Shown here: positions 33,857 through 54,342 of the stretch, in pieces | Numbering within the stretch: the first letter of the stretch is position 1 | Layout: each line of letters starts with the position of its first letter | From: a phage | Assembly (NCBI GenBank): GCA_026683435.1 | Contig: GCA_026683435.1_4866.1 | Reading direction: 5' to 3' (one strand) | Length of the DNA: 64,000 nucleotides | The notes under the pieces: model-generated | What the model was told of the DNA's origin: nothing | What the model saw: the letters and a program-made list of their open reading frames with translations, nothing else | Databases searched by the model: none | Program-made: the position numbers and the translations under genes

Positions 33857-33887
33857 TAACTCTCACCTAAGTAATATATATCTGAAA
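33857..33887 (-). promoter_or_regulatory. conserved upstream motif, copy 1 (putative phage promoter or operator)
   Basis: TAACTCTCACCTAAGTAATATATATCTGAAA on the plus strand, identical to 52611-52641, about 45-75 nt upstream of the ATG. Confidence 0.5.
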
Positions 33888-33904
33888 ATAATTGTAATCG
33901 GACT

Positions 33905-33945
33905 AGACAAAAAAAGAAGAAACCCTACTCCCGAAGGAGTAGGGT
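33905..33945 (-). terminator. intrinsic terminator
   Basis: Stem CCCTACTCC/GGAGTAGGG with UUCG loop on the transcript, then T-run. Confidence 0.55.
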
Positions 33946-33981
33946 ACTGCTTTATTCGCTACCCTTGGGATAAGCGTCATC

Positions 33982-34410
33982 CTAGTTGATGTGGAGTAGA
34001 GTGTCCTTCAACGCCTTCTGCTTTTCGTACGACTGACGACACAAGGAAGTCAGCGTCGAATACGCCGTGCCGGTACGCACCGGTAATTCGCCACCCGCTT
34101 CGGTGGGTTCTGTACGAACAAAAGACCCTTCTTCAAACGGCGGCGCTGCGTGTGGGAAGTTCTTTTTCATGTATCGCTTATACCAGCCGGCTACAACACG
34201 GATAACTTTTGGCATCTGAGATCGTCGGTCACGTACTTTCTTCCCGTGCATCTGATTCATCTCGGAAGACATGCATAGCGAGGTGTACTGACTGAATCCG
34301 TCACTGACCCACTTACCGTCCTGGACCAGTAATTTCTTACCAACTGCTACAGCGATTCTCGGAGAGAAAATGACCGCACCATCTTTACGTTTCTTAGGCT
34401 TAAGCATCAT
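33982..34410 (-). CDS. hypothetical basic protein (142 aa)
   Basis: N-terminus MMLKPKKRKDG resembles the N-terminus of the next gene. Confidence 0.6.
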   Translation of the reverse strand: MMLKPKKRKDGAVIFSPRIAVAVGKKLLVQDGKWVSDGFSQYTSLCMSSEMNQMHGKKVRDRRSQMPKVIRVVAGWYKRYMKKNFPHAAPPFEEGSFVRTEPTEAGGELPVRTGTAYSTLTSLCRQSYEKQKALKDTLLHIN

Positions 34411-35203
34411 TATCGTCCTTGTATAGGGAGTCGTAAGGGCTGTTAGTGTTCATGTTAAATTCTTGTTCTACTTCAGGATGTTGTGAAAGGGAATCCAGAA
34501 AGATCGGTTGATATCCACCCTCTGTACGTTTCTTTATCATTTCAAGGAACGACTTTCCATCAGGAACATCAGGTGTTGATACTAACACCGTGTCAGAGAC
34601 TGTCGGTAAACGCGTGCAGCCTTCAGTGTTCAGCTGTAGTACCGCGTCTGGTGCGATGTGTCTGATGTTAGGAAACTTCAACGCGATCTCTTCCATCTTC
34701 GCTTTCAATGCATCACCGTTTAGCAGCGGTACAGTCGGCGTCATATAAGCGAACTCAACATCTCGATCGGCCACATAATCGCGTAAGTGTTTTCGGGCTG
34801 CTACTGTAGCAGAAACTTGCTCTTTATTAGCGTTTATGCCGATGTCATTAAAGCGTTTTAGTTTGTCTAAGAAAACGCTAATGTTTTCCTTCGGCATAGG
34901 GCGTGGGAACTTACGCAGAAAATAAAGTTGTTCGCGGCCAGGCACCCAGCTGAGTACCCAGCACGCTTTTAGTGTACGGAAGATATCACGATAGGGTTTC
35001 TTCTCTTGAAAGAAATCCCCTTTTAACTGGCAACGGTCTTCAACCATTGCCTGGAGTTGGGTGGCTACGTTGGCCATTGCCGACCAGGTGATAAGACGAC
35101 TACGGTGTTTACCCACGTAGAGACGTCCACCTGTAACACGACGGGACTGTGGATGTACTATTTTGACAAACTGTAATCTTTTCTGTTTGCGTGGTTTTAA
35201 CAT
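34400..35203 (-). CDS. hypothetical protein (about 267 aa)
   Basis: AAGGAG lies 8 nt upstream of the internal ATG (MLKPRKQKRLQF...). Confidence 0.6.
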   Translation of the reverse strand: MLKPRKQKRLQFVKIVHPQSRRVTGGRLYVGKHRSRLITWSAMANVATQLQAMVEDRCQLKGDFFQEKKPYRDIFRTLKACWVLSWVPGREQLYFLRKFPRPMPKENISVFLDKLKRFNDIGINANKEQVSATVAARKHLRDYVADRDVEFAYMTPTVPLLNGDALKAKMEEIALKFPNIRHIAPDAVLQLNTEGCTRLPTVSDTVLVSTPDVPDGKSFLEMIKKRTEGGYQPIFLDSLSQHPEVEQEFNMNTNSPYDSLYKDDNDA

Positions 35204-35280
35204 TTTAATACTCCTTATGGTCGTAACTAATTTGAAACTGTTGCTTTTAAGGATTAACGAACAGCCTGCCAACCTCTAAT

Positions 35281-35697
35281 TTACTCATCTTTTACCTCGA
35301 AACCGTGACTACGGAAATACTCGATGGCCGCAGAACGTTTACCTACACAGGAGAGTTTTTCATAGAGCAACTCAAGGAGTGTTTTTGGTTCCCAACGTTG
35401 CTCTATGAAATAGATTAGGGCACCCAGGTTCCGTCCTAACATCTTGTCACGCAGATCCGCATCTCGTCGGGCATCCCGTAGCTCATCTTCGAGTTTCCGG
35501 TTCTTAGACTGTTCCTCAGAAAGTAGTCGTGTAAGCTTACGGCGTTCTTCGAAAGATTCATCAAGATTTCTTTTCCACGCTTCTTTCGAAATTTCCAACT
35601 CAGTCTTTGATAGGCTGAGTTCCAATTCCAGTATTTCTAATTGGCGACGCAACTGTTTTTTCTCCTGAAACAGGCCGAACATGTTTTCTCCTTGCAA
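35281..35697 (-). CDS. hypothetical coiled-coil protein
   Basis: Charged heptad-like region (LEILELELSLSKTELEISKEAWKRNLDESFEERRKL...). Confidence 0.55.
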   Translation of the reverse strand: MQGENMFGLFQEKKQLRRQLEILELELSLSKTELEISKEAWKRNLDESFEERRKLTRLLSEEQSKNRKLEDELRDARRDADLRDKMLGRNLGALIYFIEQRWEPKTLLELLYEKLSCVGKRSAAIEYFRSHGFEVKDE

Positions 35698-35747
35698 TAG
35701 CTCTATCGATTCTGTTACGAATTTCTGCTAACGTTAACGGTTCCCAC

Positions 35748-36068
35748 TTAAAATCCATTGCGACCTCCATGTGCGATGTATAACGCACATTTCGCATTGA
35801 GTGCTTCGATATTAGCGATAAGTATCATCACCCCGCCGAGTGTTCGTGGTACGCGAACTGCTTCGTACTCGCGACTTTGTGTACGGACACAATATTCATC
35901 GCCCAGGAACGCGATTTCGTAATACTCAGCACGTAACGGTACAAATGACTGTAGCAACATATCTGCGGTTTGATAGTCGTCAGTCAGTTTCCCGCCCTCG
36001 AGTAAATATTTCTGAATCTCGTGAATAGTCAGTCCCCGTAATGAAATAGACACCGGCTTCTCCTTCAT
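35748..36068 (-). CDS. hypothetical protein (106 aa)
   Basis: ORF in the co-directional block; overlaps the upstream ORF in another frame. Confidence 0.45.
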   Translation of the reverse strand: MKEKPVSISLRGLTIHEIQKYLLEGGKLTDDYQTADMLLQSFVPLRAEYYEIAFLGDEYCVRTQSREYEAVRVPRTLGGVMILIANIEALNAKCALYIAHGGRNGF

Positions 36069-36411
36069 GGTCGATTAATAACAGTTCAGGTGGTACGTCG
36101 TAGTCGATGGGTGCGGACTCCTCCATCACGCTATACAATCGCTGATAGAACTCTCTGGAGGTTTCCAGGTGCCCTCTTGACACGTGTCTGACATGCGGTG
36201 TATTAGGATGATAAAACTCGCCGTAGGTTATCGCTAACTCGACAAACCATAGACATAGTTCTCTTGGCCCGTATCGGTTATAAAACTTTATCACCCCAAC
36301 ATCAAACATCTTGTTGTAATGCGGTAAATCACGATAACGAAGTTTTAGTGTACCTACACCGATGCGTTGAAGCTCGATAGAGATAGCTACGTCTATGGTT
36401 AACATTATCAA
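35980..36411 (-). CDS. hypothetical protein (143 aa)
   Basis: ORF in the co-directional block. Confidence 0.5.
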   Translation of the reverse strand: MIMLTIDVAISIELQRIGVGTLKLRYRDLPHYNKMFDVGVIKFYNRYGPRELCLWFVELAITYGEFYHPNTPHVRHVSRGHLETSREFYQRLYSVMEESAPIDYDVPPELLLIDHEGEAGVYFITGTDYSRDSEIFTRGRETD

Positions 36412-36428
36412 TTACCCTTATCTACCGA

Positions 36429-36812
36429 TCAGTTAAATCCGGTATATTCGTTGATGCTACCGTCCTTGATATACACGCCTGGCGTCAGTGCAACTTTACG
36501 TGGATCGTTATCAGCACGCTCGCCGTTACACTGAACGTTCCACTCGTTGACTAAGCGCTCCATTTCGCGCGATGCATATAGGCGCACGTCTGTAACCAGC
36601 TCGCTGGCCTCACCCAGATGCGTTGCGTGAAGCACGCTATTCTCCAGGCCGTAGAGTTTAGCGAGCAGGATTTTGTTAAGTTCTAACGCTGCTTTTGCAA
36701 CGAGCGCGTACCCTTGACGTTGTCCATCTATGTCTGCGTTCAGTAACGTCAGCTGATGATTTTTCATGTGCTCGATAGCCAGTGCTAAATCGGTGTTCGG
36801 TGGTGTTTCCAT
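36429..36812 (-). CDS. hypothetical protein (127 aa)
   Basis: ORF with an ATGA-type junction to the upstream gene. Confidence 0.55.
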   Translation of the reverse strand: METPPNTDLALAIEHMKNHQLTLLNADIDGQRQGYALVAKAALELNKILLAKLYGLENSVLHATHLGEASELVTDVRLYASREMERLVNEWNVQCNGERADNDPRKVALTPGVYIKDGSINEYTGFN

Positions 36813-37132
36813 TAGTTTTTATCCTCACGTTTACTAAATTCTTCTAACATCTCGTCGTACGCACTCCTGGTATCTTTTAATCCCTGAACGGCCGCGTCAT
36901 AGGCACGCCGCGCAGGGGACGTAAGATGGTAGTGCCCAATACGTTCGATAATGTCGTGACAGCGACTTATGTGCGTGCAGAGCCTACTCGCATTAACGCC
37001 CAGTTCCGCGAGGTCGTGTCTTAACTGCAAGTTATCGGCCTGTACACGACGGTTAGCGGCAGCTAATTCTCGGTTTTCTTCGTACAGTTGTTTTTGTCGC
37101 TTGTTAATCAGCGCCAGTAACCAGTTCAACAT
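36812..37132 (-). CDS. hypothetical coiled-coil protein (106 aa)
   Basis: ORF with charged helical composition. Confidence 0.55.
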   Translation of the reverse strand: MLNWLLALINKRQKQLYEENRELAAANRRVQADNLQLRHDLAELGVNASRLCTHISRCHDIIERIGHYHLTSPARRAYDAAVQGLKDTRSAYDEMLEEFSKREDKN

Positions 37133-37142
37133 CCTGTCCCCC

Positions 37143-37661
37143 TTAACGCTTCAGATAGATAACGTTATGGTTTTCGTACTTCGCGTCTACCCAGGAAAAT
37201 TCCCAGTAATGTCTCGGACGATCGGCGATTTTCATGTCCAGTTCCAGTATACCGTCTAAAGGTACCTGTCTGAGCACCTCTACGATGCTCTGCAGCTCGT
37301 TACGAGGCCGGTCGTGGATTAGCTCCAGATAACGCTCCAAACGCGCAGGCGTCGCTACAGTGCGAATATGAGTACGTTTATCATCGTCGTGCAGGTAAAG
37401 GAAGTTTGGTGTGCGTGGAACGTACCAGTGCCAGGTACCGATATACGGACCGGGCTGATAATCAGACAGTTGTTTGATTGCATTTAATACCGACGAACAA
37501 CGGAAATACCAGATGTCCCATTCATCACGAGGGAACAGTTCCGCGACTTTCACTTTCAATGGGTCGATACTAATATCCCCCGCAGCCAATACTTCCGGGG
37601 CAACGCCCGATTCTAAAACGTTACGTTCCCGTTTGGTATACAGGTTCATGATAATATTCAC
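37143..37661 (-). CDS. hypothetical protein (172 aa)
   Basis: ORF in the co-directional block. Confidence 0.55.
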   Translation of the reverse strand: MNIIMNLYTKRERNVLESGVAPEVLAAGDISIDPLKVKVAELFPRDEWDIWYFRCSSVLNAIKQLSDYQPGPYIGTWHWYVPRTPNFLYLHDDDKRTHIRTVATPARLERYLELIHDRPRNELQSIVEVLRQVPLDGILELDMKIADRPRHYWEFSWVDAKYENHNVIYLKR

Positions 37662-37688
37662 TTAATGCTCCTTAGGATTTAAAATAGC

Positions 37689-38024
37689 TTACTGTTTAGC
37701 CCAGTATTCGGCTAACGTTTGGTCACCTTTACCGATGCGAGCATGAATGCCCATTTTACGCAGCCGGTACAGTTCAAGGGACATGGTGTTTAGTTTGATA
37801 AGATTTACGTCCGTTGGGCTCTTAAGGCAATCGTCTAATACATTAACGAATTTATCCAGCGCCTCTTGCGGAACTTTGCCTTCTGGGTAGTCGTACAGTG
37901 TTATCACTTTAAAGGTGTAACCGTCGATATTCGACAACTGTTTTACAGCTTCACCGATATCACGATTTATCATTGGTGTCCTATTGAGACGCATTGGTCT
38001 GGCAACACGGATTACTCTACCCAT
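37689..38024 (-). CDS. hypothetical protein (111 aa)
   Basis: ORF in the co-directional block. Confidence 0.5.
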   Translation of the reverse strand: MGRVIRVARPMRLNRTPMINRDIGEAVKQLSNIDGYTFKVITLYDYPEGKVPQEALDKFVNVLDDCLKSPTDVNLIKLNTMSLELYRLRKMGIHARIGKGDQTLAEYWAKQ

Positions 38025-38349
38025 TGACCACCCCCAAATCGCTTACAGTGGATGCTGCGGGGACATCCAGGTTATTCATCCATAACGACAGCTTGTTCAT
38101 CTTCGCCGCGGTTTCAGGACTAGGGTTATTGCGCAAGTCACTTAAAGCCATCGCAAACTGGGTTGCCAGGATTTGACTGCCGTAGAAAGCACTGCGGCTT
38201 ACTGGTAACGCTTCGAAGCGTGCATCGAAATTGTTTGCTTGGTTAAGTTCTTTAACAGTGCTCAGAATGGCTTCCTGCATTCGAAGTTCACCGTCGCCTT
38301 CAAGGTCAGTTGCCTGACGCAATACCGCAATGTGATAGACTTTAGACAT
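38017..38349 (-). CDS. hypothetical protein (110 aa)
   Basis: AAGGAG RBS, with terminator plus conserved motif upstream. Confidence 0.6.
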   Translation of the reverse strand: MSKVYHIAVLRQATDLEGDGELRMQEAILSTVKELNQANNFDARFEALPVSRSAFYGSQILATQFAMALSDLRNNPSPETAAKMNKLSLWMNNLDVPAASTVSDLGVVNG

Positions 38350-38411
38350 TTTAAGTGCTCCTTAATACATGACATAAGCTCTGATTGAAACGTAAATTTC
38401 AGAGGTTCACT

Positions 38412-38431
38412 GAGATAATATCTATCTGAAA
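38412..38431 (-). promoter_or_regulatory. conserved upstream motif, copy 2
   Basis: GAGATAATATCTATCTGAAA on the plus strand, directly downstream of the terminator hairpin of the preceding gene. Confidence 0.45.
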
Positions 38432-38471
38432 TAAAATAAAGGTTAGGTGGTACCTCGTAGAGGTACCACCT
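38430..38471 (-). terminator. intrinsic terminator
   Basis: Stem AGGTGGTACCTC/GAGGTACCACCT, then T-rich run on the minus transcript. Confidence 0.55.
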
Positions 38472-38477
38472 AGACAC

Positions 38478-40637
38478 TTACTGATATATTTTGATTTGTG
38501 GGTAACTATAGCTATAGCTATCGCTATCAACATCCTGACCGACAAACAAAATGCCTGTGTTAGAAAACGCCGCGCTGCAATACAATGTTAGCCCGGCGGG
38601 GTTAGAAATCGTATTACCGTAGTAGGCGCTGTAGCGCATGTACTTACCGTCATTCTTCACAAACAGGCTGCCTAACGATCCAACCATTCCGAAGATCAAA
38701 CAAGCACCATCGGGAGAAACACAGACATTGCCGTTCGGATATCGAGTGGATGTTACACTATAATCAATTTCCGTGTAATCCAACTCACGTGTCGCCACCC
38801 AACCATCGGCGCGTTTTTCGAAGATGTTGTATTTGTGGGTTTCAAGGACGGATACCAGTATGACTGAAAAGTTCGAAGATGCTGCCACCTTCAACGTCGA
38901 GGCTTCTGCTAACCCTGGGATGTCTAGCTTAGCGGTTTCAACATAGAGTCCTTCTGAACCTTTAGTTACGATATGAACAGATTTTCCATTGTGCTCTGAA
39001 AAAGCAACGCTGGTGCCATCGGCGGTCATCGCAATACTGTCGTACGAACCACACAGAGCACCAGAATCGTCGAAGTCAAACGTGAGCGTTTCGTAATTTG
39101 AAAACCCATCACTTTTTTGGTAAACAGCTATTTCGCGCGTACCATTCCCAACGAACAGTGTCTCTCCGTCCGGGGTGAGTTTGACCAACTTACCGTTTAC
39201 ACCGGTGGCCGGGAGATTGGTAATTGCTGTTGGCGTCACTTTGCCCCACGGCATGTCGGCACTGTTGTCGTAAACCAGCACTGCGCCCTTCGTTGTTTCC
39301 CCAGTTATCGCGGAAGGAATCCCGACGACGAACAAATCGCCTGACTTGTTTATCGATACCGGACAACGCCCATCGGTTTCCGCATTTTCACCAGTATCAA
39401 AAGTTAGATCCATCAGAATGCTGGCATCGTGTCTATAGCCTGGGAAATCTTTTCTATATATAGAAATTGTAGTTGAACGCTTTGCAAGTGGAGTGGTAAT
39501 CAGTACATTTGCATCGCTACTACAATCCAATTCTGCACCCAACGAATAATTATTTTCCGAAGACACGTTCAACGACTGGAATTCATTCGATGGGTATACG
39601 TTTCGGCTTATCTTTATCCGATAAGGATCGGACCACTGTCCGACGGTGTCCTCACCACGATATCTGACGCGTAGCCAATAACTACTACCGTATTGAAGCA
39701 CGTTATCCGGCAGAGTTATCGTTGTAAGGTTTCGCATATCGAACAATGAAGAGAATGGTAGGTTGCTACTAGGACTAAAATCTAACGTATCGCCATAGTT
39801 ATAATAGAGTTTCCAATCTGTAGCAATATGCGTTTCCGTGCCTGAAGTTTCAAACGTCGATGTTTCTATCGTTAAACCTGACGGTCCGTTCACATCGGTT
39901 GGGGTTGGCGACACTATCGTCGGTTTTTGGATTGTGGTCTCTATTACCGAAAACATGGTTACTGACCAGTCACTATTAACCGTATCTGAGTGAAATTTAG
40001 CACGGGCGTAATACGTCTTGTTTCCTACCAGTGTGCCGGGTGGTAAAGTTAGAAATTTTTTAGCATCCTGAGATTCGAGCAATTGGTAAACCGTAGTGGA
40101 AAAATCTTCATTTTCAGACACTTCCCAACTCGTCGCTCTATGAGGTGTTGTTTGAAACGGCCTTGCAGTGAAGCCATTGAGGATAAAATCCAGATCACTA
40201 GCTGAACTAGAACCGTAGTACGGGGAAATCCATGTAGGCGCGTCCACTACATTAGAGACCACCTCAATTTCATAGGTTTTGGTGATGCCGTTAGCAGAAA
40301 CGGTCAGCGTAATAATTTGTCCTAACTGCCGAGGATCTTCGATAAACAACGTATAGTTTAAACCTCCATAATGCCTGATTATTGCTTCAGGGCACGTTAC
40401 CTGATAAACCGACGGTTCTTCATTACCGGCAATGTAAAAAAACGTTTCCCTGCCTAGAATGCATTTTTTTTCATCTCCGTCGGAAAAGATTACAGTGAAT
40501 GATGACTCTGCAGAAGCATCTGACAACGGTATCTTGTATTCGATTCCATCCTTACTAAATAAAACAACCCCACCCGTTTTATCCCCAGTAAATTCAGGCA
40601 GTTCGTGTAAACGTTTCTTTTTGACTACAGTTGCCAT
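38478..40637 (-). CDS. large hypothetical protein (719 aa)
   Basis: Long ORF. An FN3-like/beta-rich architecture is a guess from Ser/Thr/Gly-rich composition. Confidence 0.65.
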   Translation of the reverse strand: MATVVKKKRLHELPEFTGDKTGGVVLFSKDGIEYKIPLSDASAESSFTVIFSDGDEKKCILGRETFFYIAGNEEPSVYQVTCPEAIIRHYGGLNYTLFIEDPRQLGQIITLTVSANGITKTYEIEVVSNVVDAPTWISPYYGSSSASDLDFILNGFTARPFQTTPHRATSWEVSENEDFSTTVYQLLESQDAKKFLTLPPGTLVGNKTYYARAKFHSDTVNSDWSVTMFSVIETTIQKPTIVSPTPTDVNGPSGLTIETSTFETSGTETHIATDWKLYYNYGDTLDFSPSSNLPFSSLFDMRNLTTITLPDNVLQYGSSYWLRVRYRGEDTVGQWSDPYRIKISRNVYPSNEFQSLNVSSENNYSLGAELDCSSDANVLITTPLAKRSTTISIYRKDFPGYRHDASILMDLTFDTGENAETDGRCPVSINKSGDLFVVGIPSAITGETTKGAVLVYDNSADMPWGKVTPTAITNLPATGVNGKLVKLTPDGETLFVGNGTREIAVYQKSDGFSNYETLTFDFDDSGALCGSYDSIAMTADGTSVAFSEHNGKSVHIVTKGSEGLYVETAKLDIPGLAEASTLKVAASSNFSVILVSVLETHKYNIFEKRADGWVATRELDYTEIDYSVTSTRYPNGNVCVSPDGACLIFGMVGSLGSLFVKNDGKYMRYSAYYGNTISNPAGLTLYCSAAFSNTGILFVGQDVDSDSYSYSYPQIKIYQ

Positions 40638-41224: not shown

Positions 41225-41238
41225 CTACTCGTACGCTG

Positions 41239-45592: not shown

Positions 45593-45634
45593 TTAAAAAA
45601 GAAAAAAGACGTCCTACTCCCGAAGGAGTAGGAC
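45593..45634 (-). terminator. intrinsic terminator
   Basis: Stem GTCCTACTCC/GGAGTAGGAC with UUCG loop, then T-run. Confidence 0.55.
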
Positions 45635-45640
45635 ACCGAA

Positions 45641-45985
45641 TTAGAAGTGCTTACGGAAGATAGACTCGTTGCAGGTCTCCCCACGCGTCTTACCACGAGA
45701 CACGGTGGTTTTGTTTGCAGCAGTTTTACCATCACCCACAGCGGTCTTCGCCAGCGGCAGACGTTCGCTTGCACCACGGAATGCGTAGTAGCGAATGTTT
45801 TCTGGGGCAGCGACATCGCCTTCGAACTGGAAGGTGATACCTTTACGCAGTGACTTGTAGGTGTAGCCTTTCAAGTCCAGCGTCTGCGGCAGTGCATTTT
45901 CATCGGCACCATGTTGGTAGTGGATAACCGTACCTACACGTTTGATGACGATATACATCTGCGCTGCTTTTGGTGCTTTGGCCAT
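45641..45985 (-). CDS. hypothetical protein (114 aa), possibly abundant
   Basis: AAGGAG RBS, conserved motif upstream and strong terminator downstream. Confidence 0.6.
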   Translation of the reverse strand: MAKAPKAAQMYIVIKRVGTVIHYQHGADENALPQTLDLKGYTYKSLRKGITFQFEGDVAAPENIRYYAFRGASERLPLAKTAVGDGKTAANKTTVSRGKTRGETCNESIFRKHF

Positions 45986-46036
45986 TCTCGATACTCCTTA
46001 TAGATTAAAATGTGAGGGAGAAAACAATCTTCTCCC

Positions 46037-46057
46037 CTAGATAACATCTATCTGAAA
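46037..46057 (-). promoter_or_regulatory. conserved upstream motif, copy 3
   Basis: CTAGATAACATCTATCTGAAA on the plus strand; contains inverted repeat AGATA-N5-TATCT. Confidence 0.45.
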
Positions 46058-46066
46058 AGTAATGCG

Positions 46067-48385: not shown

Positions 48386-48394
48386 ATTCTCTCC

Positions 48395-49198
48395 TTACGC
48401 AAGGGTGTAGTGATGCGTGATTACACGATACTCTAACCCATCGATAGAAGGAAACTCGTGCTCTATCGCAACACCCATGTTGACCTTCTTACCTTTCTGT
48501 CCCGCCAAATGCAAAATGGCGTGGTAGTGTTTTAGAAACTCTACCGAGTAGGCAATCGGGTCAAAAGTTTGGCAGCAGAATTGCTCAGTAATGATGCTCT
48601 TCGGGAACTCCTTATAAAGCATTAATGAAAACGGTTTCTGACCGTGCAACCCCACGAACGCAGAGACAAAACCATTTGCTAATTCACCCAACATCTCACG
48701 CGTTCCTGCGTCTTTTAGCGTAGGTCGCATTAGATAGCAAACATCTTGGGTTTGTTCTAATGACAATGTCTCCAACGGGACAACCGATGGGTCTGACGTA
48801 AAACCGTATTTCGGACTGACAGTAATCTCCACACGCTTCGTTACAGCTTCGAACCCCAGACGTTGGTACAATGCCGCATGTTCGGTGTCATGCGGAAAAC
48901 AGGTAATATCAAGCATCTGCACTTCCAGGAGTCGCGTTAAACGCTTCCACTCGTGGAACAGGGGCTCGGAAAGCACGTGCAACTCGTAGATGTAGTAAAC
49001 AATACCTGAACGACATCCACGAAAATACATTTGCGCACGACCGCTATTGCTCAACACTAACCAATGATCGTCTTCTTGGTCTGCGACGGGTCGCAAATCT
49101 TGAATCCGTTCACGGAGTTGCCCCAAGGTGGTCAATCGACCACTAAACTCTACGGTCAGGTCATTTTTGTCCATACCGTATAGATTAAATAGTTGCAT
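48395..49198 (-). CDS. hypothetical protein (267 aa), possibly GNAT-like
   Basis: Weak C-terminal 'YQRLGFEAV' GNAT-like motif only. Confidence 0.5.
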   Translation of the reverse strand: MQLFNLYGMDKNDLTVEFSGRLTTLGQLRERIQDLRPVADQEDDHWLVLSNSGRAQMYFRGCRSGIVYYIYELHVLSEPLFHEWKRLTRLLEVQMLDITCFPHDTEHAALYQRLGFEAVTKRVEITVSPKYGFTSDPSVVPLETLSLEQTQDVCYLMRPTLKDAGTREMLGELANGFVSAFVGLHGQKPFSLMLYKEFPKSIITEQFCCQTFDPIAYSVEFLKHYHAILHLAGQKGKKVNMGVAIEHEFPSIDGLEYRVITHHYTLA

Positions 49199-49207
49199 GT
49201 TGGTACC

Positions 49208-50026
49208 TTATAAGGTGCCGATTAGCTCTGTCACCGCTTTACGTTTATTCGCATCCGCAGACATATATCGACCTACTTGAACTTCGCGCCAAGTAAAGCC
49301 GTAATAAATATCGCGTGTGAGTAACGTATCTGCGTTTGACAGAACGATCTTATTGCCATCGGCAGCTTGTTGTTTTAAAAGTTTCGCTAACTCGCGGTGG
49401 TCAGCTTGTGAAAATTCCTTGCTGTGATACTGCGCATGTTTAGCCGTATCCGAAAGTGGGATGTATGGCGGGTCAGCGTATATCACTGCGTTAGATGGGC
49501 ACTTATTTAAGATGTCGCGGAAGTCGGCGCAGAGCAGCTCGACGTTGGTTTCCGAACAACGTTTCGCCCACGCCAGAATTTCCTCTTCAGGGAAATAGAC
49601 ACCGTTCGGATGTTGACCATAAGGCACGTTAAACCCACCCGACTGATTGTATCTGCACAAGCCGTTGTAACCATGACGTGTAAGATACAGGAACATCGCA
49701 GCGCGCTGGAGATTAGGTTTCCCCGTGGTTGTCTCGCTGTTAAATTCCTCGCGTCGTTTCATGTACAGACCGCGGTCCGTCCCATTTGCAAAGAGCGCCT
49801 TTGCTTCCAGTATCAACGCCTCCGGACGATCGCGCGCCATGGTCAATAACTCGATTAAGTCCGGGTTCGTGTCGCCGAGAATATAGTTCGGGTATTTAGT
49901 GTTTAAAAACACTGACCCTGCACCCACAAACGGTTCAACGAAATACTCAGCATCTGGAAGCACCTGTAGCAGCTCGGGAAGTACGCGACTCTTACCACCC
50001 ATCCATTTTAAAATTGGTCTTATCAC
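49208..50026 (-). CDS. dam: DNA N6-adenine methyltransferase (Dam family)
   Basis: 'KWMGGK', 'FVEPFVGAGSVF' (motif I) and 'DPPY' (motif IV). Confidence 0.8.
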   Translation of the reverse strand: MIRPILKWMGGKSRVLPELLQVLPDAEYFVEPFVGAGSVFLNTKYPNYILGDTNPDLIELLTMARDRPEALILEAKALFANGTDRGLYMKRREEFNSETTTGKPNLQRAAMFLYLTRHGYNGLCRYNQSGGFNVPYGQHPNGVYFPEEEILAWAKRCSETNVELLCADFRDILNKCPSNAVIYADPPYIPLSDTAKHAQYHSKEFSQADHRELAKLLKQQAADGNKIVLSNADTLLTRDIYYGFTWREVQVGRYMSADANKRKAVTELIGTL

Positions 50027-50032
50027 CCGTTA

Positions 50033-51061
50033 TCATCCTCTCATGCCAGATTGAAACATATCACTGATAGTCAGCCTGGTTGTAGTCTCCACCGGAATGC
50101 TAGGTTCTTCTTTCAGCACTCGATCGGCGCGGTTCCCATTCACCCGTTTCCAGCTAATAAGTTCAGGATCGCGTTTCAACGTTAGTGTACGCAGTACCTG
50201 CTTGCAACGTAAGATGTTACCGTACAGGTGATTTGCTGGATTATTATCAGCAGCTGTTTCAATATAGACTTGGTCGGAATGACGTTGTGCGAAATCGAAC
50301 AGCGCGCCCATTAGCCGGCGACCAATGCCACGTTTACGATGCGTAGGTGCAACCGTCAAGCCAGAGAGTTCAACGACGCCTGGCGCGACCAAACGCATTT
50401 GGGCAATGCCGACGATATCACGACCGTCTCGCCAAATCGCGGTTTCCACATTAGCGTGCTGAATTCTTGCTATCACGGTTTCTGCCAAAGGACCAATGTG
50501 TGTATAATAGCCACGAATGTCATACCCCAGTTCCTCGCAAATTGCACCACTGACCAGATTCAGGATAACGTCTTTGTCGTCCTTGGAAAGTTCTGCGTAT
50601 GCGTCACCAGAAATAATCTTGATTTCCGATGCAGTTATTACTTTATCAAACAGTTTAGAATGACATGCCCAGACGATATCTGAAAGAACAAACCCTTTTT
50701 CGACCAGTTTTTGTTCAACATCGCCAGTAGGTGCCGGGCACGACATATATTCGAAGCCTGTGTGGTCGAGCACAAGGGCTAAACCAACTTTATCGAATGC
50801 CCCAGGTACAAACTCCTCAAAATAGTGACAGGTTAGTGTAGGGTCACCGTGTCGATAGGTGGCCACTAAATAACCCTCCCAGGTTTCTCTATTCCGTACC
50901 ACGTAAACAGAATAAGTCTCGTCCTTTAGAAACTCTTTTAGGCGGCGTGCTCGTACAGTATCGCTACCGACGTTATTTTGGAACTCGGCAGAGCGAATGC
51001 TGCTGCGGAACAATTTAGCCACAGTTTTCATTGTAATGCCCTCAAAAGGTAATGCTGTCAC
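50033..51061 (-). CDS. two-domain protein with C-terminal GNAT acetyltransferase domain
   Basis: 'HRKRGIGRRLMGALFDFA' GNAT acetyl-CoA-binding motif in the C-terminal half. Confidence 0.6.
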   Translation of the reverse strand: MTALPFEGITMKTVAKLFRSSIRSAEFQNNVGSDTVRARRLKEFLKDETYSVYVVRNRETWEGYLVATYRHGDPTLTCHYFEEFVPGAFDKVGLALVLDHTGFEYMSCPAPTGDVEQKLVEKGFVLSDIVWACHSKLFDKVITASEIKIISGDAYAELSKDDKDVILNLVSGAICEELGYDIRGYYTHIGPLAETVIARIQHANVETAIWRDGRDIVGIAQMRLVAPGVVELSGLTVAPTHRKRGIGRRLMGALFDFAQRHSDQVYIETAADNNPANHLYGNILRCKQVLRTLTLKRDPELISWKRVNGNRADRVLKEEPSIPVETTTRLTISDMFQSGMRG

Positions 51062-51079
51062 AACATGAGGATAATGCGT

Positions 51080-51117
51080 AAAAAGACAAAAAATTAAGGG
51101 GTCCGAAGACCCCTTAA
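51080..51117 (-). terminator. intrinsic terminator
   Basis: Stem TTAAGGGGTC/GACCCCTTAA with UUCG loop, then T-run. Confidence 0.55.
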
Positions 51118-51120
51118 TGA

Positions 51121-51777
51121 TTACAGTTCAGGTTTGGAGACAAGCGCCGTCCAAGTTTCAGAATGTTTGATACTGACGTGCGCCAAGCGATTCACCATGA
51201 ACGCAAATTTGTCCATATGCTTCTGCACTTCGTTATCAGTCAGATTACCAGCGATAACTTTACCGTCTTTGGTCAGCACGATATAACCGTGGTTGTTGTC
51301 TACAGTAGTAAACGCCACGTCAATCGTAACTGGGTACAGTTTCACCAGCGTCGGCAGAATATGACCAACACGATCCGCCATACCCGCAAGCTGACCACAA
51401 AGGTCGGCTTTATCCTGCATGAACAAACGCAACATCGCTACTGCAAACACCGGATAGATGTTTTCGATTTGCGTGTCGTAACGAGACAGACCGATAACTT
51501 CATCACCACGGGTTAGCACCATGTTGTTCAGATGCGCGCCTTTATAGATGGTAAAGCGTACGTCGCTACCAAGGTTAACCGCAACGATTTCCTGACCAAG
51601 GTCAATCGGATATTCGCGCTCGATGTGAATTGTTTTCAGACGTTCACTGATTGGTACAATTACATCCGGTTTAGGAATGGTAGGTGGGCGTGGAGATTCG
51701 GTAGTACGCGTTTTTGTGGCTTTAATCGCGTTGCTTGCCGTTGAATCTTTTGCTACAGTTTTAGGGGCCTTCGCCAT
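51121..51777 (-). CDS. hypothetical protein (about 218 aa)
   Basis: AAGGAG RBS at the internal ATG (MAKAPKTVAKD). Confidence 0.55.
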   Translation of the reverse strand: MAKAPKTVAKDSTASNAIKATKTRTTESPRPPTIPKPDVIVPISERLKTIHIEREYPIDLGQEIVAVNLGSDVRFTIYKGAHLNNMVLTRGDEVIGLSRYDTQIENIYPVFAVAMLRLFMQDKADLCGQLAGMADRVGHILPTLVKLYPVTIDVAFTTVDNNHGYIVLTKDGKVIAGNLTDNEVQKHMDKFAFMVNRLAHVSIKHSETWTALVSKPEL

Positions 51778-51799
51778 GATATACTCCTTAAGGGTTATA

Positions 51800-52189
51800 T
51801 TAGTTATCCCAGAAAGCTGCTTCTGGAAAGTCGTGTTCAAATGCCCGACGGTCATTCTCTACACGGTTTAAATGTGTCGGTAAAGACACACAGTTATTAC
51901 AGATACAAAGTTCTTTATCCCCTTGACTGGGGTCAAAGTCGTGCCATTTCCACTCAACAGTATCCCGTTTCGGGAAGGTACCTTTGCAATCGTCGCAGAC
52001 CACTTCTTCAGCTGCAATTTCAGCCTGCAGTTTTTCCCAGCAGTCTTCGCACATGTAATACGTTTCGCGGCCCCATGGGTCGCACTCTGCCGTATAGCGC
52101 GGGGCTATAGAGCCCACTTTAAGATGTTTACATCGATCATCCTCTTCCGTCATCACGCGACGGGTGATACCATTTACAAACCAATTCAT
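51800..52189 (-). CDS. Cys-rich zinc-finger-like protein (129 aa)
   Basis: Paired CxxC motifs (CEDCWEKL, CDDCKGT, CICNNC). Confidence 0.5.
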   Translation of the reverse strand: MNWFVNGITRRVMTEEDDRCKHLKVGSIAPRYTAECDPWGRETYYMCEDCWEKLQAEIAAEEVVCDDCKGTFPKRDTVEWKWHDFDPSQGDKELCICNNCVSLPTHLNRVENDRRAFEHDFPEAAFWDN

Positions 52190-52200
52190 ATGTTTGCTCC

Positions 52201-52566
52201 CTACATTACTGCAGAAGGTTTACGTGCCATGACTTTGAGTCCTGTTTCTCGTACCCGGATAGGACAGTTATTCATGTAGTCGGTGCAGGATTCAATTTTG
52301 AAGCTATGGCGGCATTTGCCGTTGATGGAACGGTAAACGATTTCGTAATTCAGGCGCAGTGTATCGGCAACACGCATCAGAGTTTCGATAGTCACGGCTT
52401 TCTCGCGTTCATTTTTAATCGCAGAGATTTGTGACGGTGAGCAGCCTACCAACAATGCAATGTCTTTCTGCGTAACATCCTTCGCAGTGACACGAGTAAT
52501 AATGTAAGAGAGACGAACCAGAAATGCTTTCTTTGCCAACACAACGGTTTGATGTTTAAAACGCAT
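52201..52566 (-). CDS. helix-turn-helix DNA-binding protein (121 aa)
   Basis: 'QKDIALLVGCSPSQISAIKN' HTH-like segment. AAAGGAG RBS, conserved motif upstream. Confidence 0.55.
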   Translation of the reverse strand: MRFKHQTVVLAKKAFLVRLSYIITRVTAKDVTQKDIALLVGCSPSQISAIKNEREKAVTIETLMRVADTLRLNYEIVYRSINGKCRHSFKIESCTDYMNNCPIRVRETGLKVMARKPSAVM

Positions 52567-52610
52567 TAGAATACTCCTTTAGATTAATAGTCGATTAGAG
52601 AGTTTAGTAG

Positions 52611-52641
52611 TAACTCTCACCTAAGTAATATATATCTGAAA
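52611..52641 (-). promoter_or_regulatory. conserved upstream motif, copy 4
   Basis: Identical 31-mer to copy 1, within an approximately 80-bp region highly similar to 33811-33890. Confidence 0.5.
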
Positions 52642-52683
52642 TTTAGTGGAGTGGAAGCAAAAAGCATAAGACTGTTCTGATCT

Positions 52684-52723
52684 GTAAAAAAAGACAATAC
52701 CCTCTTACCCGAAGGTAAGAGGG
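52684..52723 (-). terminator. intrinsic terminator
   Basis: Stem CCCTCTTACC/GGTAAGAGGG with UUCG loop, then T-run. Confidence 0.55.
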
Positions 52724-52729
52724 GTACAA

Positions 52730-53353
52730 CTAACCTGCCAGAATACGTTCAACGATACGCGCGGCTTGTAACGCTATATCGTCGTCAGCCGTAACACGCA
52801 TCAGCGGGAACTTATCGCCGCCATCTGTGGTGATGTGGAAAGCAAAACGGTAATGGTCGCGTAAGGCGTCCCAATCGGTCTGTGAGCGCAGATACTTCGC
52901 TGTCAGTACCTCATCATCCCAGTTCTTACCTTGTGCCTCTACGCGCTTCTTAAAGCGTTCTGTGGCGGTTTCGTAAGATACATCGGTTGCCACGTAAAGC
53001 TTTGGTGCGTTAATGTGGTCTAATACCCGCGAACGGAAAACTTCCCCTTTACCATCGACGCCCTGGTAGACAATAGTCGATTGACAAAAACGGTCAAAAA
53101 TAACGACATCGTGCTCTGGTACAACGAGGTCCATCGTGTATTGGAAATCCAGACACATCGCTTTAGCAATGCGTTCGTTAGAAGCGTGCTGGATAACCAG
53201 AGAACGTGCACTAATACCGGCTTCAGTGGTATTCGTCGGGTGATTGACGATGATGACATTAACGCCAGCGGAGCGCAACATCGCTTGAATCATTTTCGCG
53301 AGTGTTGATTTGCCAGAAAAATCTGGACCATCCAGCGCCACTGAGTTTAACAT
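52730..53353 (-). CDS. thymidylate/dNMP kinase-like P-loop kinase
   Basis: 'LDGPDFSGKST' P-loop near the N-terminus and 'DRF' (Tmk DRY/F-like) motif. Start set at the internal ATG. Confidence 0.55.
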   Translation of the reverse strand: MLNSVALDGPDFSGKSTLAKMIQAMLRSAGVNVIIVNHPTNTTEAGISARSLVIQHASNERIAKAMCLDFQYTMDLVVPEHDVVIFDRFCQSTIVYQGVDGKGEVFRSRVLDHINAPKLYVATDVSYETATERFKKRVEAQGKNWDDEVLTAKYLRSQTDWDALRDHYRFAFHITTDGGDKFPLMRVTADDDIALQAARIVERILAG

Positions 53354-53413
53354 TTTATTCTTCCCCAAAAGTTTAATTAATTGTAGTGGTGTCACAATAT
53401 AGCGAGCATACGT

Positions 53414-53449
53414 AAAGAAAAAAAATAATAGGCACTCCGAAGAGTGCCT
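53414..53449 (-). terminator. intrinsic terminator
   Basis: Stem AGGCACTC/GAGTGCCT with UUCG loop, then T-run. Confidence 0.55.
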
Positions 53450-53456
53450 AGCTTAC

Positions 53457-54221
53457 TTAGAAGTCAACTCGCGTTTTCGATTTTTCCTCAATGCCTTCTG
53501 GCCATGAATCAATCCACGCTTGCAGCACCGCAGCTACACGGGGCTCAGCTAAGAACCTCTTCAATAACGGCCATGACTGGAGAGGATATAAAAACTTCAA
53601 CGAAACTTGACCTGGGTCAAACTCATTCCGAACAGTAAACGGTAAACGGAAATCATAAGTTACCTGAACAACTGGCTCACTGAAAGGCTGGCCAAAGAAA
53701 CTCAGGTTCCGAGTTACCGAAAGGACATGCCCTGCAAACTCACCCCGAATCAGTTCGCTGCTCTTAACGGAGACAAACGAATAACCGTCGGTGTTCGGCT
53801 TACGCAGTCGTTCGGTTTTCATCACGTTAGCGAAGAAGTTATCAATCACTTCTTCGACCAATACGTAATTCAGACACTCCCCACGCAACGCCTCGAGATT
53901 GTGTTGAGACCATGCATCCCATAGCGCCGGTTTTCTGGCAATCAGCTTAAAGAACAGACGTGCAGAAACCGCCCGGAGTTCGCCGAGCATTTTCTTGGTC
54001 AGTTCAGTTTGATCCCAACTGGGGGCACAAAAGATTGTCCTTCCGCCGGAACCTACTAAGGTGGCACCGGTCACGCTGTTAATCAGTTTGTGACTTAACA
54101 TGTGCGGAATACCTTTTGCCGTCAGGTCATTTTCGTCATACGTGAATACGTAGCGATACTGACCATCTGCGGTAGGTACGGAAAGCCATTCTTTGGTTGC
54201 TGCTTTATTGAGTTTTGACAT
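53457..54221 (-). CDS. hypothetical protein (254 aa)
   Basis: ORF in the co-directional block. Confidence 0.6.
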   Translation of the reverse strand: MSKLNKAATKEWLSVPTADGQYRYVFTYDENDLTAKGIPHMLSHKLINSVTGATLVGSGGRTIFCAPSWDQTELTKKMLGELRAVSARLFFKLIARKPALWDAWSQHNLEALRGECLNYVLVEEVIDNFFANVMKTERLRKPNTDGYSFVSVKSSELIRGEFAGHVLSVTRNLSFFGQPFSEPVVQVTYDFRLPFTVRNEFDPGQVSLKFLYPLQSWPLLKRFLAEPRVAAVLQAWIDSWPEGIEEKSKTRVDF

Positions 54222-54320
54222 TTTGTTTACTCGCTTTTAAGTTTAAGTTGGTGAGTTTTAACCGACTCACAACGGCTTCTAGCATATGCTAAGGATGAAA
54301 CGTAATTTTTGCACGTCTCC

Positions 54321-54342
54321 CTAAGATAACATCTATCCAAAA
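54321..54342 (-). promoter_or_regulatory. conserved upstream motif, copy 5 (variant)
   Basis: CTAAGATAACATCTATCCAAAA on the plus strand, next to a terminator hairpin. Confidence 0.4.

What the first reader, a model, noticed from the sequence alone, without database searches (positions are those of the whole stretch)
33857..54342. Conserved upstream motif in at least five copies, placed after terminator hairpins
Seen: plus-strand copies at 33857-33887 and 52611-52641 (identical 31-mers), 38412-38431, 46037-46057 and 54321-54342. On the transcribed (minus) strand the consensus is TTTCAGATA(G/T)AT(A/G)TTA(T/C)CT.(A)GG, with an internal inverted repeat AGATA-N5-TATCT in some copies. Each lies about 45-100 nt upstream of a leftward start codon, often immediately downstream of a hairpin terminator. 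Inference: a phage-specific promoter or operator class; one copy precedes the HTH gene 52201-52566, suggesting possible autoregulation.
Basis: partly seen in the sequence, partly recalled or inferred. Interest (0 to 1): 0.55.

Follow-up and report, generated by a model that had tools for sequence, protein, structure and literature searches.

The report
Jumbo-phage early promoters (virion RNA polymerase)
The repeated motif is the early-gene promoter of a phiKZ-related giant phage, read by the RNA polymerase that the virus injects with its DNA; this promoter class is already well described, so the finding is real but ordinary.

Summary
The window has exactly five copies, all on the minus strand and all in non-coding gaps. 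They score 37-42 bits against a next-best 10.7, which is within shuffle range.

The window is an SPN3US-like jumbo phage (Seoulvirus, 95-97% identical to SPN3US, vB_EcoM_Lh1B and EC001). This clade is phiKZ-related and encodes a virion-packaged and a non-virion multisubunit RNA polymerase.

The motif matches the published early-promoter consensus of relatives (N1M2, OBP, 201phi2-1, phiKZ TATATTAC, AR9 ATATTAT-N6-G). It has the same block spacing I measured in the phiKZ genome.

SPN3US carries 23 copies, all gene-oriented and 22 intergenic. Several sit directly ahead of the non-virion RNA polymerase genes. None lies in the window's structural-gene block.

Most likely mechanism: the injected virion RNA polymerase starts at an invariant G six bases after ATATTAY. 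Upstream hairpin terminators insulate each unit.

The operator/HTH-autoregulation idea is not supported. The dyad is present in 3 of 5 copies and is missing at the HTH gene's own promoter in five of the six relatives compared.

One extra in this clade: many early leaders begin with a hairpin starting at +1, kept by compensatory changes, and not enriched in phiKZ.

No transcript data were available, so start sites and timing are inferred.

The parts
33860..33888 (-). Early promoter P1 (TTTTCAGATATATATTACTTAGGTGAGAG). Predicted start is G at 33864. It lies ahead of ORF 33364-33810, the homolog of the SPN3US gene at 114059-114505.
   Evidence: (42.3 bits). SPN3US ortholog at 113981.
38404..38432 (-). 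Early promoter P2 (ATTTCAGATAGATATTATCTCAGTGAACC). Predicted start is G at 38408. It lies ahead of ORF 38017-38349.
   Evidence: (38.0 bits). SPN3US ortholog at 109888.
46030..46058 (-). Early promoter P3 (TTTTCAGATAGATGTTATCTAGGGGAGAA). Predicted start is G at 46034. It lies ahead of ORF 45641-45985 and has no terminator directly upstream.
   Evidence: (42.1 bits). SPN3US ortholog at 100810. A 95%-identical copy is in locus L037.
52614..52642 (-). Early promoter P4 (ATTTCAGATATATATTACTTAGGTGAGAG). Predicted start is G at 52618. It lies ahead of the HTH gene 52201-52566.
   Evidence: (41.7 bits). Conserved across Seoulvirus, Erskinevirus and Machinavirus (alignment A1).
54315..54343 (-). Early promoter P5 (TTTTTGGATAGATGTTATCTTAGGGAGAC). 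Predicted start is G at 54319, giving a 98-nt leader ahead of ORF 53457-54221.
   Evidence: (37.5 bits). SPN3US ortholog at 92535.
33922..33945 (-). Terminator hairpin with UUCG loop and T-run, upstream of P1.
38444..38472 (-). Terminator hairpin (13 pairs), 12 nt upstream of P2.
52700..52723 (-). Terminator hairpin with UUCG loop after the thymidylate kinase gene, 58 nt upstream of P4. Conserved across genera.
54356..54377 (-). Hairpin ACCCACTCC-TTCG-GGAGTGGGT upstream of P5. The T-run starts 12 nt after the stem, so this is not a canonical intrinsic terminator.
   Evidence: read from the sequence. Not called by the scanner.
33844..33864 (-). Predicted 5'-terminal leader hairpin of P1: GAGAGTTAA-cca-TTAACTCTT, starting at +1.
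   Evidence: -7.5 kcal/mol.
52598..52618 (-). Predicted 5'-terminal leader hairpin of P4: GAGAGTT-actacta-AACTCTC, starting at +1. Orthologs keep the stem through compensatory changes.
46018..46034 (-). Predicted 5'-terminal leader hairpin of P3: GAGAAGA-ttg-TTTTCTC.
54297..54319 (-). Predicted 5'-terminal leader hairpin of P5: GAGACGTG-caaaaat-TACGTTTC, with two G.U pairs.
   Evidence: -11.8 kcal/mol for the first 45 nt.
52201..52566 (-). Cro/C1-type HTH protein gene (homolog of SPN3US gp101). It is the first gene of the P4 unit.
   Evidence: HTH_3, E = 2e-7, 31.4 bits. Annotated as an HTH DNA-binding protein in relatives.

Best explanation
The five copies are early promoters of an SPN3US-like, phiKZ-related jumbo phage.

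Shown:
- The motif is a roughly 36-bp asymmetric element. It has an A-rich block near -30, TTTC at -23 to -20, AGATAK at -19 to -14, the AT-rich core ATATTAY at -13 to -7, and an invariant G six bases further on.
- It lies in intergenic gaps, is co-oriented with the downstream gene, and is usually just after a hairpin terminator.
- It is conserved at orthologous positions across phage genera.

Inferred from experimentally studied relatives (phiKZ, 201phi2-1, AR9):
- The virion-packaged multisubunit RNA polymerase (in SPN3US gp240, gp42, gp244, gp241 and gp218), injected with the DNA, recognises this element without host RNA polymerase or new protein synthesis.
- It starts at the invariant G and makes mRNAs with 49-98-nt leaders and strong Shine-Dalgarno sites.
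- The upstream terminators insulate each early unit from read-through.
- One job of these promoters is to express the second, non-virion RNA polymerase, which then transcribes the middle and late genes.
For: Identity of the phage:
- The window is 95-97% identical to SPN3US, vB_EcoM_Lh1B, EC001 and Proteus phage 7.
- SPN3US encodes several split RNA polymerase beta/beta' genes. Its virion and non-virion polymerase subunits are assigned in PMC5105663.

Sequence match to the known class:
- The window consensus TTTCAGATAKATRTTAYCTnrGKGA fits N1M2 TTTCARRYAKATATTATYWAAGTG and OBP TTTYARRYAKATATTATYWWADTG.
- P1 and P4 fit 201phi2-1 TATATTACDWHDGTG at every position and contain phiKZ TATATTAC (PMC7058600, Table 2).
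- AR9 early promoters are AAATATATATTAT-(6N)-G, with G the mapped start (PMC5312081). In SPN3US the base 6 nt after ATATTAY is G in 23 of 23 copies and the next base is A in 20 of 23.

Architecture:
- The conserved blocks fall at about -10, -20 and -30, as reported for phiKZ and 201phi2-1.
- In the phiKZ genome, 21 sites match TATATTAC-N6-G; those with early-promoter context carry a T-rich block at the same distance upstream.

Distribution:
- SPN3US has 23 copies, all on the gene strand and 22 intergenic.
- They include sites ahead of the non-virion polymerase genes gp34/gp35 (28964), gp76-gp77 (72481, 72679) and gp22-gp23 (15609, 15702).
- No copy lies in the window's structural-gene block at 1-33 kb.

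Conservation and breadth:
- In the tmk-HTH spacer, the terminator, the motif and the leader hairpin are kept from Seoulvirus to Machinavirus. In the more distant phages only this stretch still gives a BLAST match.
- Exact-pattern scans of IMG/VR hit almost only contigs of 210-306 kb, including OBP.

Not a host promoter: there is no sigma-70-type -35/-10 pair on the motif strand, and sigma-70-like hits overall are below shuffle expectation.

A review states that such a motif can be found in every RNA-polymerase-encoding jumbo phage and was confirmed as the early promoter wherever it was tested (PMC7598289).
Against: - There are no transcript 5' ends, timing data, rifampicin or chloramphenicol data, or in vitro transcription for this phage or for SPN3US in anything I could read. 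The start site, the temporal class and the polymerase are all assigned by homology.
- The virion RNA polymerase genes lie outside the window.
- One SPN3US copy (25221) lies inside a coding region.
- Some genes in the same block, such as the thymidylate kinase gene at 52730-53395, follow a terminator with no motif. The motif therefore does not account for all transcription in the region.
- No factor that confers promoter specificity on any virion RNA polymerase of this type is known, so how recognition works is open.
Confidence: 0.9

Rival explanations
1. The motif, through its dyad AGATA-N5-TATCT, is an operator for a dimeric HTH protein such as the product of 52201-52566. This protein would autoregulate and shut off the motif-bearing units. 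This could operate in addition to promoter function.
For: - The ORF is a real Cro/C1-type HTH protein and sits behind one copy.
- The half-site centres are 10 bp apart, which suits an HTH dimer.
- 3 of 5 window copies carry the perfect dyad. The dyad also explains the reverse-strand shadow hits.
- The HTH family is confined to jumbo phages.
Against: - The dyad is broken in P1 and P4 (TACTT).
- It is also broken at the HTH gene's own promoter in SPN3US, pEa_SNUABM_29, Asesino and phiEaH2.
- In SPN3US position -7 is C in 7 of 23 copies and position -6 is T in 6 of 23, while -18 stays G in 21 of 23. The arms therefore do not covary.
- The conserved flanks are asymmetric and every copy is gene-oriented.
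- phiKZ early promoters share the core but lack the arms. None of the 83 records matching the HTH protein is a Pseudomonas phage.
Confidence: 0.06
2. The motif is a host sigma-70 promoter, with the TATTAT-like core acting as a -10 box, used by the bacterial RNA polymerase immediately after infection.
For: - The core GATATTAT contains TATTAT, which matches TATAAT at 5 of 6 positions.
- Independence from host RNA polymerase has been shown for phiKZ and AR9, not for this phage.
Against: - There is no -35-like hexamer at 16-18 bp. TTTCAG lies only 5 bp from TATTAT.
- The consensus scan finds no promoter on the motif strand at any copy.
- The conservation of 36 bp, including -29 A and the G at +1 in 23 of 23 copies, exceeds anything sigma-70 requires.
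- The motif is shared with phages of Pseudomonas, Klebsiella and Erwinia.
Confidence: 0.02
3. The motif is a middle or late promoter read by the non-virion RNA polymerase rather than by the injected enzyme.
For: No timing data exist for this phage. Both polymerases are phage-encoded, so a conserved phage-specific motif fits either one.
Against: - Published phiKZ middle promoters (TACT near -22 after an A-run) and late promoters (TATG at the start site) look different.
- The motif precedes the non-virion polymerase genes themselves.
- It is absent from the structural block at 1-33 kb.
Confidence: 0.02

Closest known systems
Early promoters of phiKZ-related jumbo phages, read by the virion RNA polymerase. 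TSS-mapped in phiKZ, 201phi2-1 and AR9; predicted in OBP, EL and N1M2.
   Same: - The AT-rich core (T)ATATTA(C/T).
- A T-rich block about 10 bp upstream and an A-rich block near -30.
- A G start 6 nt after the core.
- Tens of gene-oriented intergenic copies per genome.
- Placement ahead of non-virion RNA polymerase genes.
- Frequent pairing with hairpin terminators.
   Different: - The clade-specific arms are AGATAK and YCT.
- The transcribed start is GAGA.
- A 5'-terminal leader hairpin is common in the SPN3US/Erwinia-phage clade and is not enriched in phiKZ.
- No transcript mapping exists for this clade in the literature I could read.
T7/SP6-type phage promoters read by single-subunit RNA polymerases
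   Same: - A long, highly conserved phage-specific promoter.
- A transcript that starts G(G)GAGA. P3 and P5 read GGGGAGA and GGGAGA around the predicted start.
- Promoters placed after terminators.
- From my own knowledge: the T7 phi10 leader also begins with a stabilising 5' stem-loop.
   Different: - The polymerase is different. SPN3US-type genomes are annotated with split multisubunit beta/beta' genes and no T7-like enzyme.
- The consensus sequences are unrelated.
Coliphage N4 early promoters, read by its virion RNA polymerase
   Same: An injected, virion-packaged polymerase transcribes the early genes from phage-specific promoters.
   Different: - From my own knowledge: the N4 enzyme is a single giant polypeptide and needs a DNA hairpin upstream of the start site.
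- Here the hairpin lies downstream, in the transcript.
PeSL cassettes (promoter-early plus stem-loop) of T4-type phages (Arbiol et al. 2010, recalled from memory)
   Same: Repeated terminator-hairpin plus early-promoter modules lie between small early genes. P1 and P4 share an identical 31-mer and 84% identity over 75 nt, so they could serve as recombination substrates.
   Different: T4 PeSLs use host sigma-70 early promoters. I did not test whether the cassettes shuffle genes here.

Membership tests
Virion-RNA-polymerase early promoters of phiKZ-related jumbo phages | Lies in the genome of a phiKZ-related jumbo phage that encodes virion and non-virion multisubunit RNA polymerases | tested here: met
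   The window is 95-97% identical to SPN3US-type phages. SPN3US carries the split beta/beta' genes, with subunit assignments in PMC5105663. These genes lie outside the window.
Virion-RNA-polymerase early promoters of phiKZ-related jumbo phages | Highly conserved AT-rich core of about 10 nt containing (T)ATATTA(C/T) | tested here: met
   The core is ATATTAY in three window copies and ATGTTAT in P3 and P5. P1 and P4 contain TATATTAC exactly. Published consensus sequences are and the SPN3US logo.
Virion-RNA-polymerase early promoters of phiKZ-related jumbo phages | Same spacing of the upstream T-rich block, the core and the initiating G as in experimentally studied relatives | tested here: met
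   In SPN3US the layout is TTT at -23 to -21, the core at -13 to -7, and G at +1 in 23 of 23 copies. phiKZ sites read TTTaaacagTATATTAC-N6-G. AR9 reads ATATTAT-(6N)-G(+1).
Virion-RNA-polymerase early promoters of phiKZ-related jumbo phages | Core centred near -10 of an experimentally mapped transcription start | not testable with these tools
   No RNA data for this phage or for SPN3US were found or readable.
Virion-RNA-polymerase early promoters of phiKZ-related jumbo phages | Tens of copies per genome, intergenic and co-oriented with the downstream operon | tested here: met
   The window has 5 of 5 in non-coding gaps on the gene strand. SPN3US has 23 copies, all on the gene strand and 22 intergenic.
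Virion-RNA-polymerase early promoters of phiKZ-related jumbo phages | Precede early genes, including non-virion RNA polymerase subunit genes, and not virion structural genes | tested here: met
   In SPN3US copies sit ahead of gp34/35, gp76-77 and gp22-23. None lies in the window's structural block at 1-33 kb. This tests location only; timing was not tested.
Virion-RNA-polymerase early promoters of phiKZ-related jumbo phages | Transcription independent of host RNA polymerase (rifampicin) and of new protein synthesis (chloramphenicol) | not testable with these tools
   This needs infection experiments. It has been shown only for phiKZ and AR9.
Bacterial sigma-70 promoters | -35 and -10 hexamers separated by 16-18 bp | tested here: not met
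   No such pair falls on the motif strand at any of the five copies. Totals are below shuffle expectation.
Operators of dimeric Cro/C1-type HTH repressors | A dyad-symmetric site kept at all regulated promoters, including the regulator's own | tested here: not met
   The dyad is perfect in 3 of 5 window copies. It is broken at the HTH gene's own promoter in five of six phages compared. The arms do not covary in SPN3US.
N4-type hairpin promoters | A DNA hairpin upstream of the start site, recognised by the polymerase | tested here: not met
   The only recurrent hairpin starts at the predicted +1 and extends downstream.
Rfam RNA families | Match at the gathering threshold | tested here: not met
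   There are 0 matches in the whole window.

The most novel reading that the evidence does not exclude
In the SPN3US/Erwinia jumbo-phage clade the early promoter is fused to a selected RNA element: a 6-9-bp hairpin that begins at the first transcribed base (GAGA...UCUC).

It would act on the early mRNAs made by the injected polymerase. Possible roles are protecting their 5' ends from RNase E/RppH-type decay, or helping the transcript leave the polymerase or the early-infection vesicle. phiKZ lacks the element, so this would be a clade-specific layer of early gene control.

A weaker variant of the novel reading is that the early HTH protein binds the dyad-bearing subset of these promoters to shut them off.
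Probability: 0.4. Interest if true: 0.4.

Novelty: new member of a known kind. Interest (0 to 1): 0.25.

Why it matters
For annotation, the motif marks the early transcription units of an SPN3US-like phage. These records currently carry no regulatory features. The motif also predicts five early operons in this window, including a conserved HTH regulator.

Scientifically it adds little. Early promoters of this type are textbook for phiKZ-like phages, and a review already states that one can be found in every such genome.

The modest new points are:
- the full -34 to +2 architecture for this clade;
- evidence that the spacing rule core-N6-G holds from AR9 to phiKZ to SPN3US;
- the clade-specific 5'-terminal leader hairpin, which can be tested as an mRNA-stability or promoter-escape element and could be useful for expression cassettes driven by jumbo-phage polymerases.

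Tried and rejected
- **Sixth copy.** A possible sixth copy at 19834-19862 scores 8.7 bits. That is inside the shuffle range of 7.4-14 and it has no SPN3US counterpart above 12 bits. Rejected.
- **Minus-strand hits in SPN3US.** All but one (56341-56369, 18.1 bits, unexplained) are reverse reads of the same sites, caused by the partial dyad. They are not separate copies.
- **Hairpin energy against the genome.** The first 35 nt of SPN3US leaders are no more stable than random genomic 35-mers (Mann-Whitney p = 0.31). Only the test for a stem starting at +1 to +3, and z-scores against each leader's own shuffles, show the effect.
- **Hairpin as a class-wide feature.** Not supported. In phiKZ 4 of 21 leaders have it against 1.7 expected (p about 0.08). 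In the broad OBP-type set it is weaker and shows no strand asymmetry.
- **201phi2-1-type pattern scan.** It returned 13 mostly unrelated contigs and was uninformative.
- **Known RNA families and tRNAs.** None in the window.
- **Literature.** I found no paper that spells out the Seoulvirus motif. Weintraub 2019, Lavysh 2016 and Ceyssens 2014 are not held. The supplements with start-site tables are not held. I therefore could not check whether SPN3US early promoters were already listed, or whether the downstream genes are early at the protein level.
- **T7-like promoter idea.** This was prompted by the GGGAGA-like starts. I dropped it because relatives encode only multisubunit polymerases.

Full report

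Yes. Reading the minus strand at the five stated places shows the motif in each. A degenerate 15-mer with up to 2 mismatches finds exactly these five, against 0.54 expected, and 0 of 100 shuffles reach five.

A weight matrix built from the five scores them at 37.5-42.3 bits. The next best site in 64 kb scores 10.7, inside the 7.4-14 range of shuffled sequence. The window therefore holds exactly five copies, all on the minus strand.

The 31-mers at 33857-33887 and 52611-52641 are identical. All five lie in non-coding gaps of a window that is about 92% coding by a crude ORF model.

Strong hairpins lie 12-58 nt upstream of four of them.
- The two identical copies read TTACTT.
- The dyad AGATA-N5-TATCT is present in three of the five.
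- The conserved block is longer than reported.

**2. What is the window?**

Megablast places it in SPN3US-like jumbo phages (genus Seoulvirus). It is 95-97% identical to vB_EcoM_Lh1B, EC001, Proteus phage 7 and SPN3US, and is the reverse complement of SPN3US at roughly 83-147 kb.

These phages are phiKZ-related. SPN3US packages a five-polypeptide multisubunit RNA polymerase in the virion (gp240, gp42, gp244, gp241, gp218). It also encodes a second, non-virion polymerase that includes gp35 and gp77 (PMC5105663; gene tables). Literature gene numbers equal 266 minus the RefSeq locus-tag number.

**3. What is the motif?**

Published predicted or mapped early promoters of relatives read as follows (PMC7058600 Table 2; PMC5312081):

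| Phage | Early-promoter consensus |
|---|---|
| N1M2 | TBYAWWWWWTTTCARRYAKATATTATYWAAGTGWA |
| OBP | ...TTTYARRYAKATATTATYWWADTG |
| 201phi2-1 | ...TATATTACDWHDGTG |
| phiKZ | TATATTAC |
| AR9 | AAATATATATTAT-(6N)-G, with G the mapped start |

The window copies fit these almost base for base. P2 (TTTCAGATAGATATTATCTCAGTGA) differs from the N1M2 consensus at one position. P1 and P4 match the 201phi2-1 string from TATATTAC to GTG completely.

I assembled the whole SPN3US genome and scanned it. There are 23 copies, all on the main gene strand and 22 intergenic. The five orthologs of the window copies are at 113981, 109888, 100810, 94234 and 92535.

Positions below are numbered from the G six bases after ATATTAY. 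The SPN3US logo is:
- A at -34, T at -32, C at -31
- A at -29 (23 of 23) and A at -28
- A-rich from -27 to -24
- TTTC at -23 to -20
- AGATAK at -19 to -14
- ATATTAY at -13 to -7
- CT at -6 and -5, GT at -2 and -1
- G at +1 (23 of 23) and A at +2 (20 of 23)

This three-block layout at -10, -20 and -30 is what transcript mapping found for phiKZ and 201phi2-1. In 200 kb of the phiKZ genome, 21 sites match TATATTAC-N6-G. Those with early-promoter context carry a T-rich block at the same distance upstream.

**4. Context supports an early, virion-polymerase role.**

SPN3US copies sit directly ahead of the non-virion polymerase genes gp34/gp35 (28964), gp76-gp77 (72481 and 72679) and gp22-gp23 (15609 and 15702). 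This is the phiKZ paradigm, in which the injected enzyme makes the second polymerase.

In the window the copies are confined to 33.8-54.3 kb, ahead of small genes of mostly unknown function. None lies in the 1-33 kb block of virion structural, tail and lysis genes.

With the predicted starts, the leaders are 49-98 nt long and end in AAGGAG-type ribosome sites. In SPN3US copies with short leaders, the ribosome site begins 8-15 nt after the predicted G, which fits that start.

No sigma-70-type -35/-10 pair lies on the motif strand.

**5. Conservation and breadth.**

In the spacer between the thymidylate kinase and HTH genes, three elements are kept across Seoulvirus, Erskinevirus and Machinavirus: the terminator hairpin, the promoter and the start of the leader (alignment A1). 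For Machina, Huxley, Parshik and Kwan, this stretch is the only part of a 501-nt query that still gives a BLAST match.

An exact scan of IMG/VR with AGATAKATATTAYCTNNGKGA gave 62 loci. Nearly all are from contigs of 220-250 kb; four look like chance hits in unrelated contigs. The looser OBP-type pattern hit at least 120 loci in many 210-306 kb contigs, including OBP itself.

**6. The operator/autoregulation idea.**

ORF 52201-52566 is a real Cro/C1-type HTH protein (HTH_3, 31.4 bits). Its family is confined to jumbo phages of enterobacteria, Aeromonas and Stenotrophomonas.

The case against an operator role:
- The dyad is broken in P1 and P4, and at this gene's own promoter in five of six phages compared.
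- The arms do not covary within SPN3US.
- The element is asymmetric and always gene-oriented.
- phiKZ promoters share the core without the arms.

I rate an operator role at about 6%, possibly as an overlay on promoter function.

**7. Something extra: a 5'-terminal leader hairpin.**

In four of the five window leaders, a stem starts exactly at the predicted +1.

Among 59 distinct leaders from the SPN3US/Erwinia-phage clade, 35 have a stem of at least 6 bp starting at +1 to +3. Shuffles give 3.65 (maximum 9 of 200), and 5.9% of random GA-starting 40-mers have one.

Allowing G.U pairs raises stems of at least 7 bp from 11 to 27, while allowing A.C raises them only to 13. The structure is therefore strand-specific, in the RNA or the non-template strand.

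Orthologs of the HTH promoter keep the stem with different sequences:
- GAGAGTT/AACTCTC
- GAGCATT/AATGCTT
- GGACATTG/CAATGTCT

Caveats:
- The leaders are related by descent.
- The first four bases are constrained by the promoter.
- The effect is weaker in the broad metagenomic set (14 of 103 against 2.3).
- It is not significant in phiKZ (4 of 21 against 1.7).

It is therefore a clade-specific feature, not a property of the promoter class. A stabilising 5' stem-loop, as in the T7 phi10 and ompA leaders (my own knowledge), is the simplest reading.

**8. Verdict.**

It belongs to a well-known class. A review states that such a motif can be found in every RNA-polymerase-encoding jumbo phage and proved to be the early promoter wherever it was tested (PMC7598289).

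The related GenBank records I opened list no regulatory features. I found no text spelling out the Seoulvirus consensus. I therefore file it as a new member of a known kind, bordering on already known.

Start sites, timing and the polymerase are inferred by homology, since no transcript data were available. Interest is low (0.25). The leader hairpin is the only part that might repay an experiment.

Noticed in passing
window 33844-33864, 46018-46034, 52598-52618, 54297-54319 (minus strand); loci L013-L074: Early leaders in the SPN3US/Erwinia-phage clade often begin with a 6-9-bp hairpin starting at the predicted +1. 35 of 59 distinct leaders have one, against about 3.7 in shuffles. G.U pairs are favoured over A.C, and orthologs show compensatory changes. 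The hairpin is not enriched in phiKZ (4 of 21).
   Followed up: partly
window 33810-33864 and 52566-52618; 38349-38408 and 54221-54319 (minus strand): The leaders fall into sequence subfamilies. P1 and P4 share hairpin + TCTAATCGAC(Y)ATTA..TCT(T/A)AAGGAG (84% over 75 nt). P2 and P5 share AAA(W)TTACGTTTCA in a hairpin loop and arm. The same strings recur in Erwinia-phage leaders (loci L036, L038, L048, L058). These may be duplicated promoter-leader cassettes, reminiscent of T4 PeSL modules.
   Followed up: partly
window minus strand: 33037-33052, 33922-33945, 45608-45637, 51093-51118, 52700-52723, 53429-53450, 59650-59673: This is a family of GC-rich terminator hairpins with TTCG (UUCG) tetraloops. 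Only some are followed by the early-promoter motif. The others (for example before 45583, 51061 and 53395) must be followed by promoters of another, unidentified class, or rely on read-through.
   Followed up: no
window 52730-53395 (thymidylate kinase gene) and the 61-nt gap 53396-53456: The thymidylate kinase gene is bracketed by two terminators and has no early-promoter motif. How it is transcribed is unclear.
   Followed up: no
window 52201-52566; Homologs of the Cro/C1-type HTH protein are found only in jumbo phages of 218-257 kb infecting Salmonella, Erwinia, Klebsiella, Raoultella, Stenotrophomonas and Aeromonas. In the Salmonella and Erwinia relatives inspected, the gene lies next to the thymidylate kinase gene. 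Its target is unknown.
   Followed up: partly
locus L012 (Salmonella phage STsAS) 355-978: The tmk-HTH spacer is 624 nt in STsAS against 163 nt in the window. BLAST places the P1/P4-like matches near L012:352-502, and the stretch from there to the HTH gene carries no annotated gene.
   Followed up: no
window 19425-19884: This is a 460-nt stretch with no ORF of 60 aa or more in my crude model. It ends in a strong terminator-like hairpin (GGCCCCGAAGGGCC plus a T-run near 19450-19470). It contains a motif-like sequence at 19834-19862 that scores only 8.7 bits, which is not significant.
   Followed up: partly
window 23423-32905 (minus strand): This is a tandem array of about ten ORFs of roughly 265-470 aa. 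They correspond to SPN3US genes annotated as virion structural proteins, which looks like a paralog family. No early-promoter motif lies within or ahead of it.
   Followed up: no
window 8945-11216 (plus strand): Two adjacent ORFs correspond to SPN3US genes annotated as radical SAM domain proteins. They sit in the plus-strand block next to a 1742-aa ORF (475-5703).
   Followed up: no
SPN3US 25221-25249 and 56341-56369 (loci L003 and L004): One good motif copy (28.9 bits) lies inside the coding region of the gene at 23886-25493, about 260 nt before the next gene. A lone weak minus-strand hit (18.1 bits) lies next to the copy at 56289. Neither is explained.
   Followed up: no
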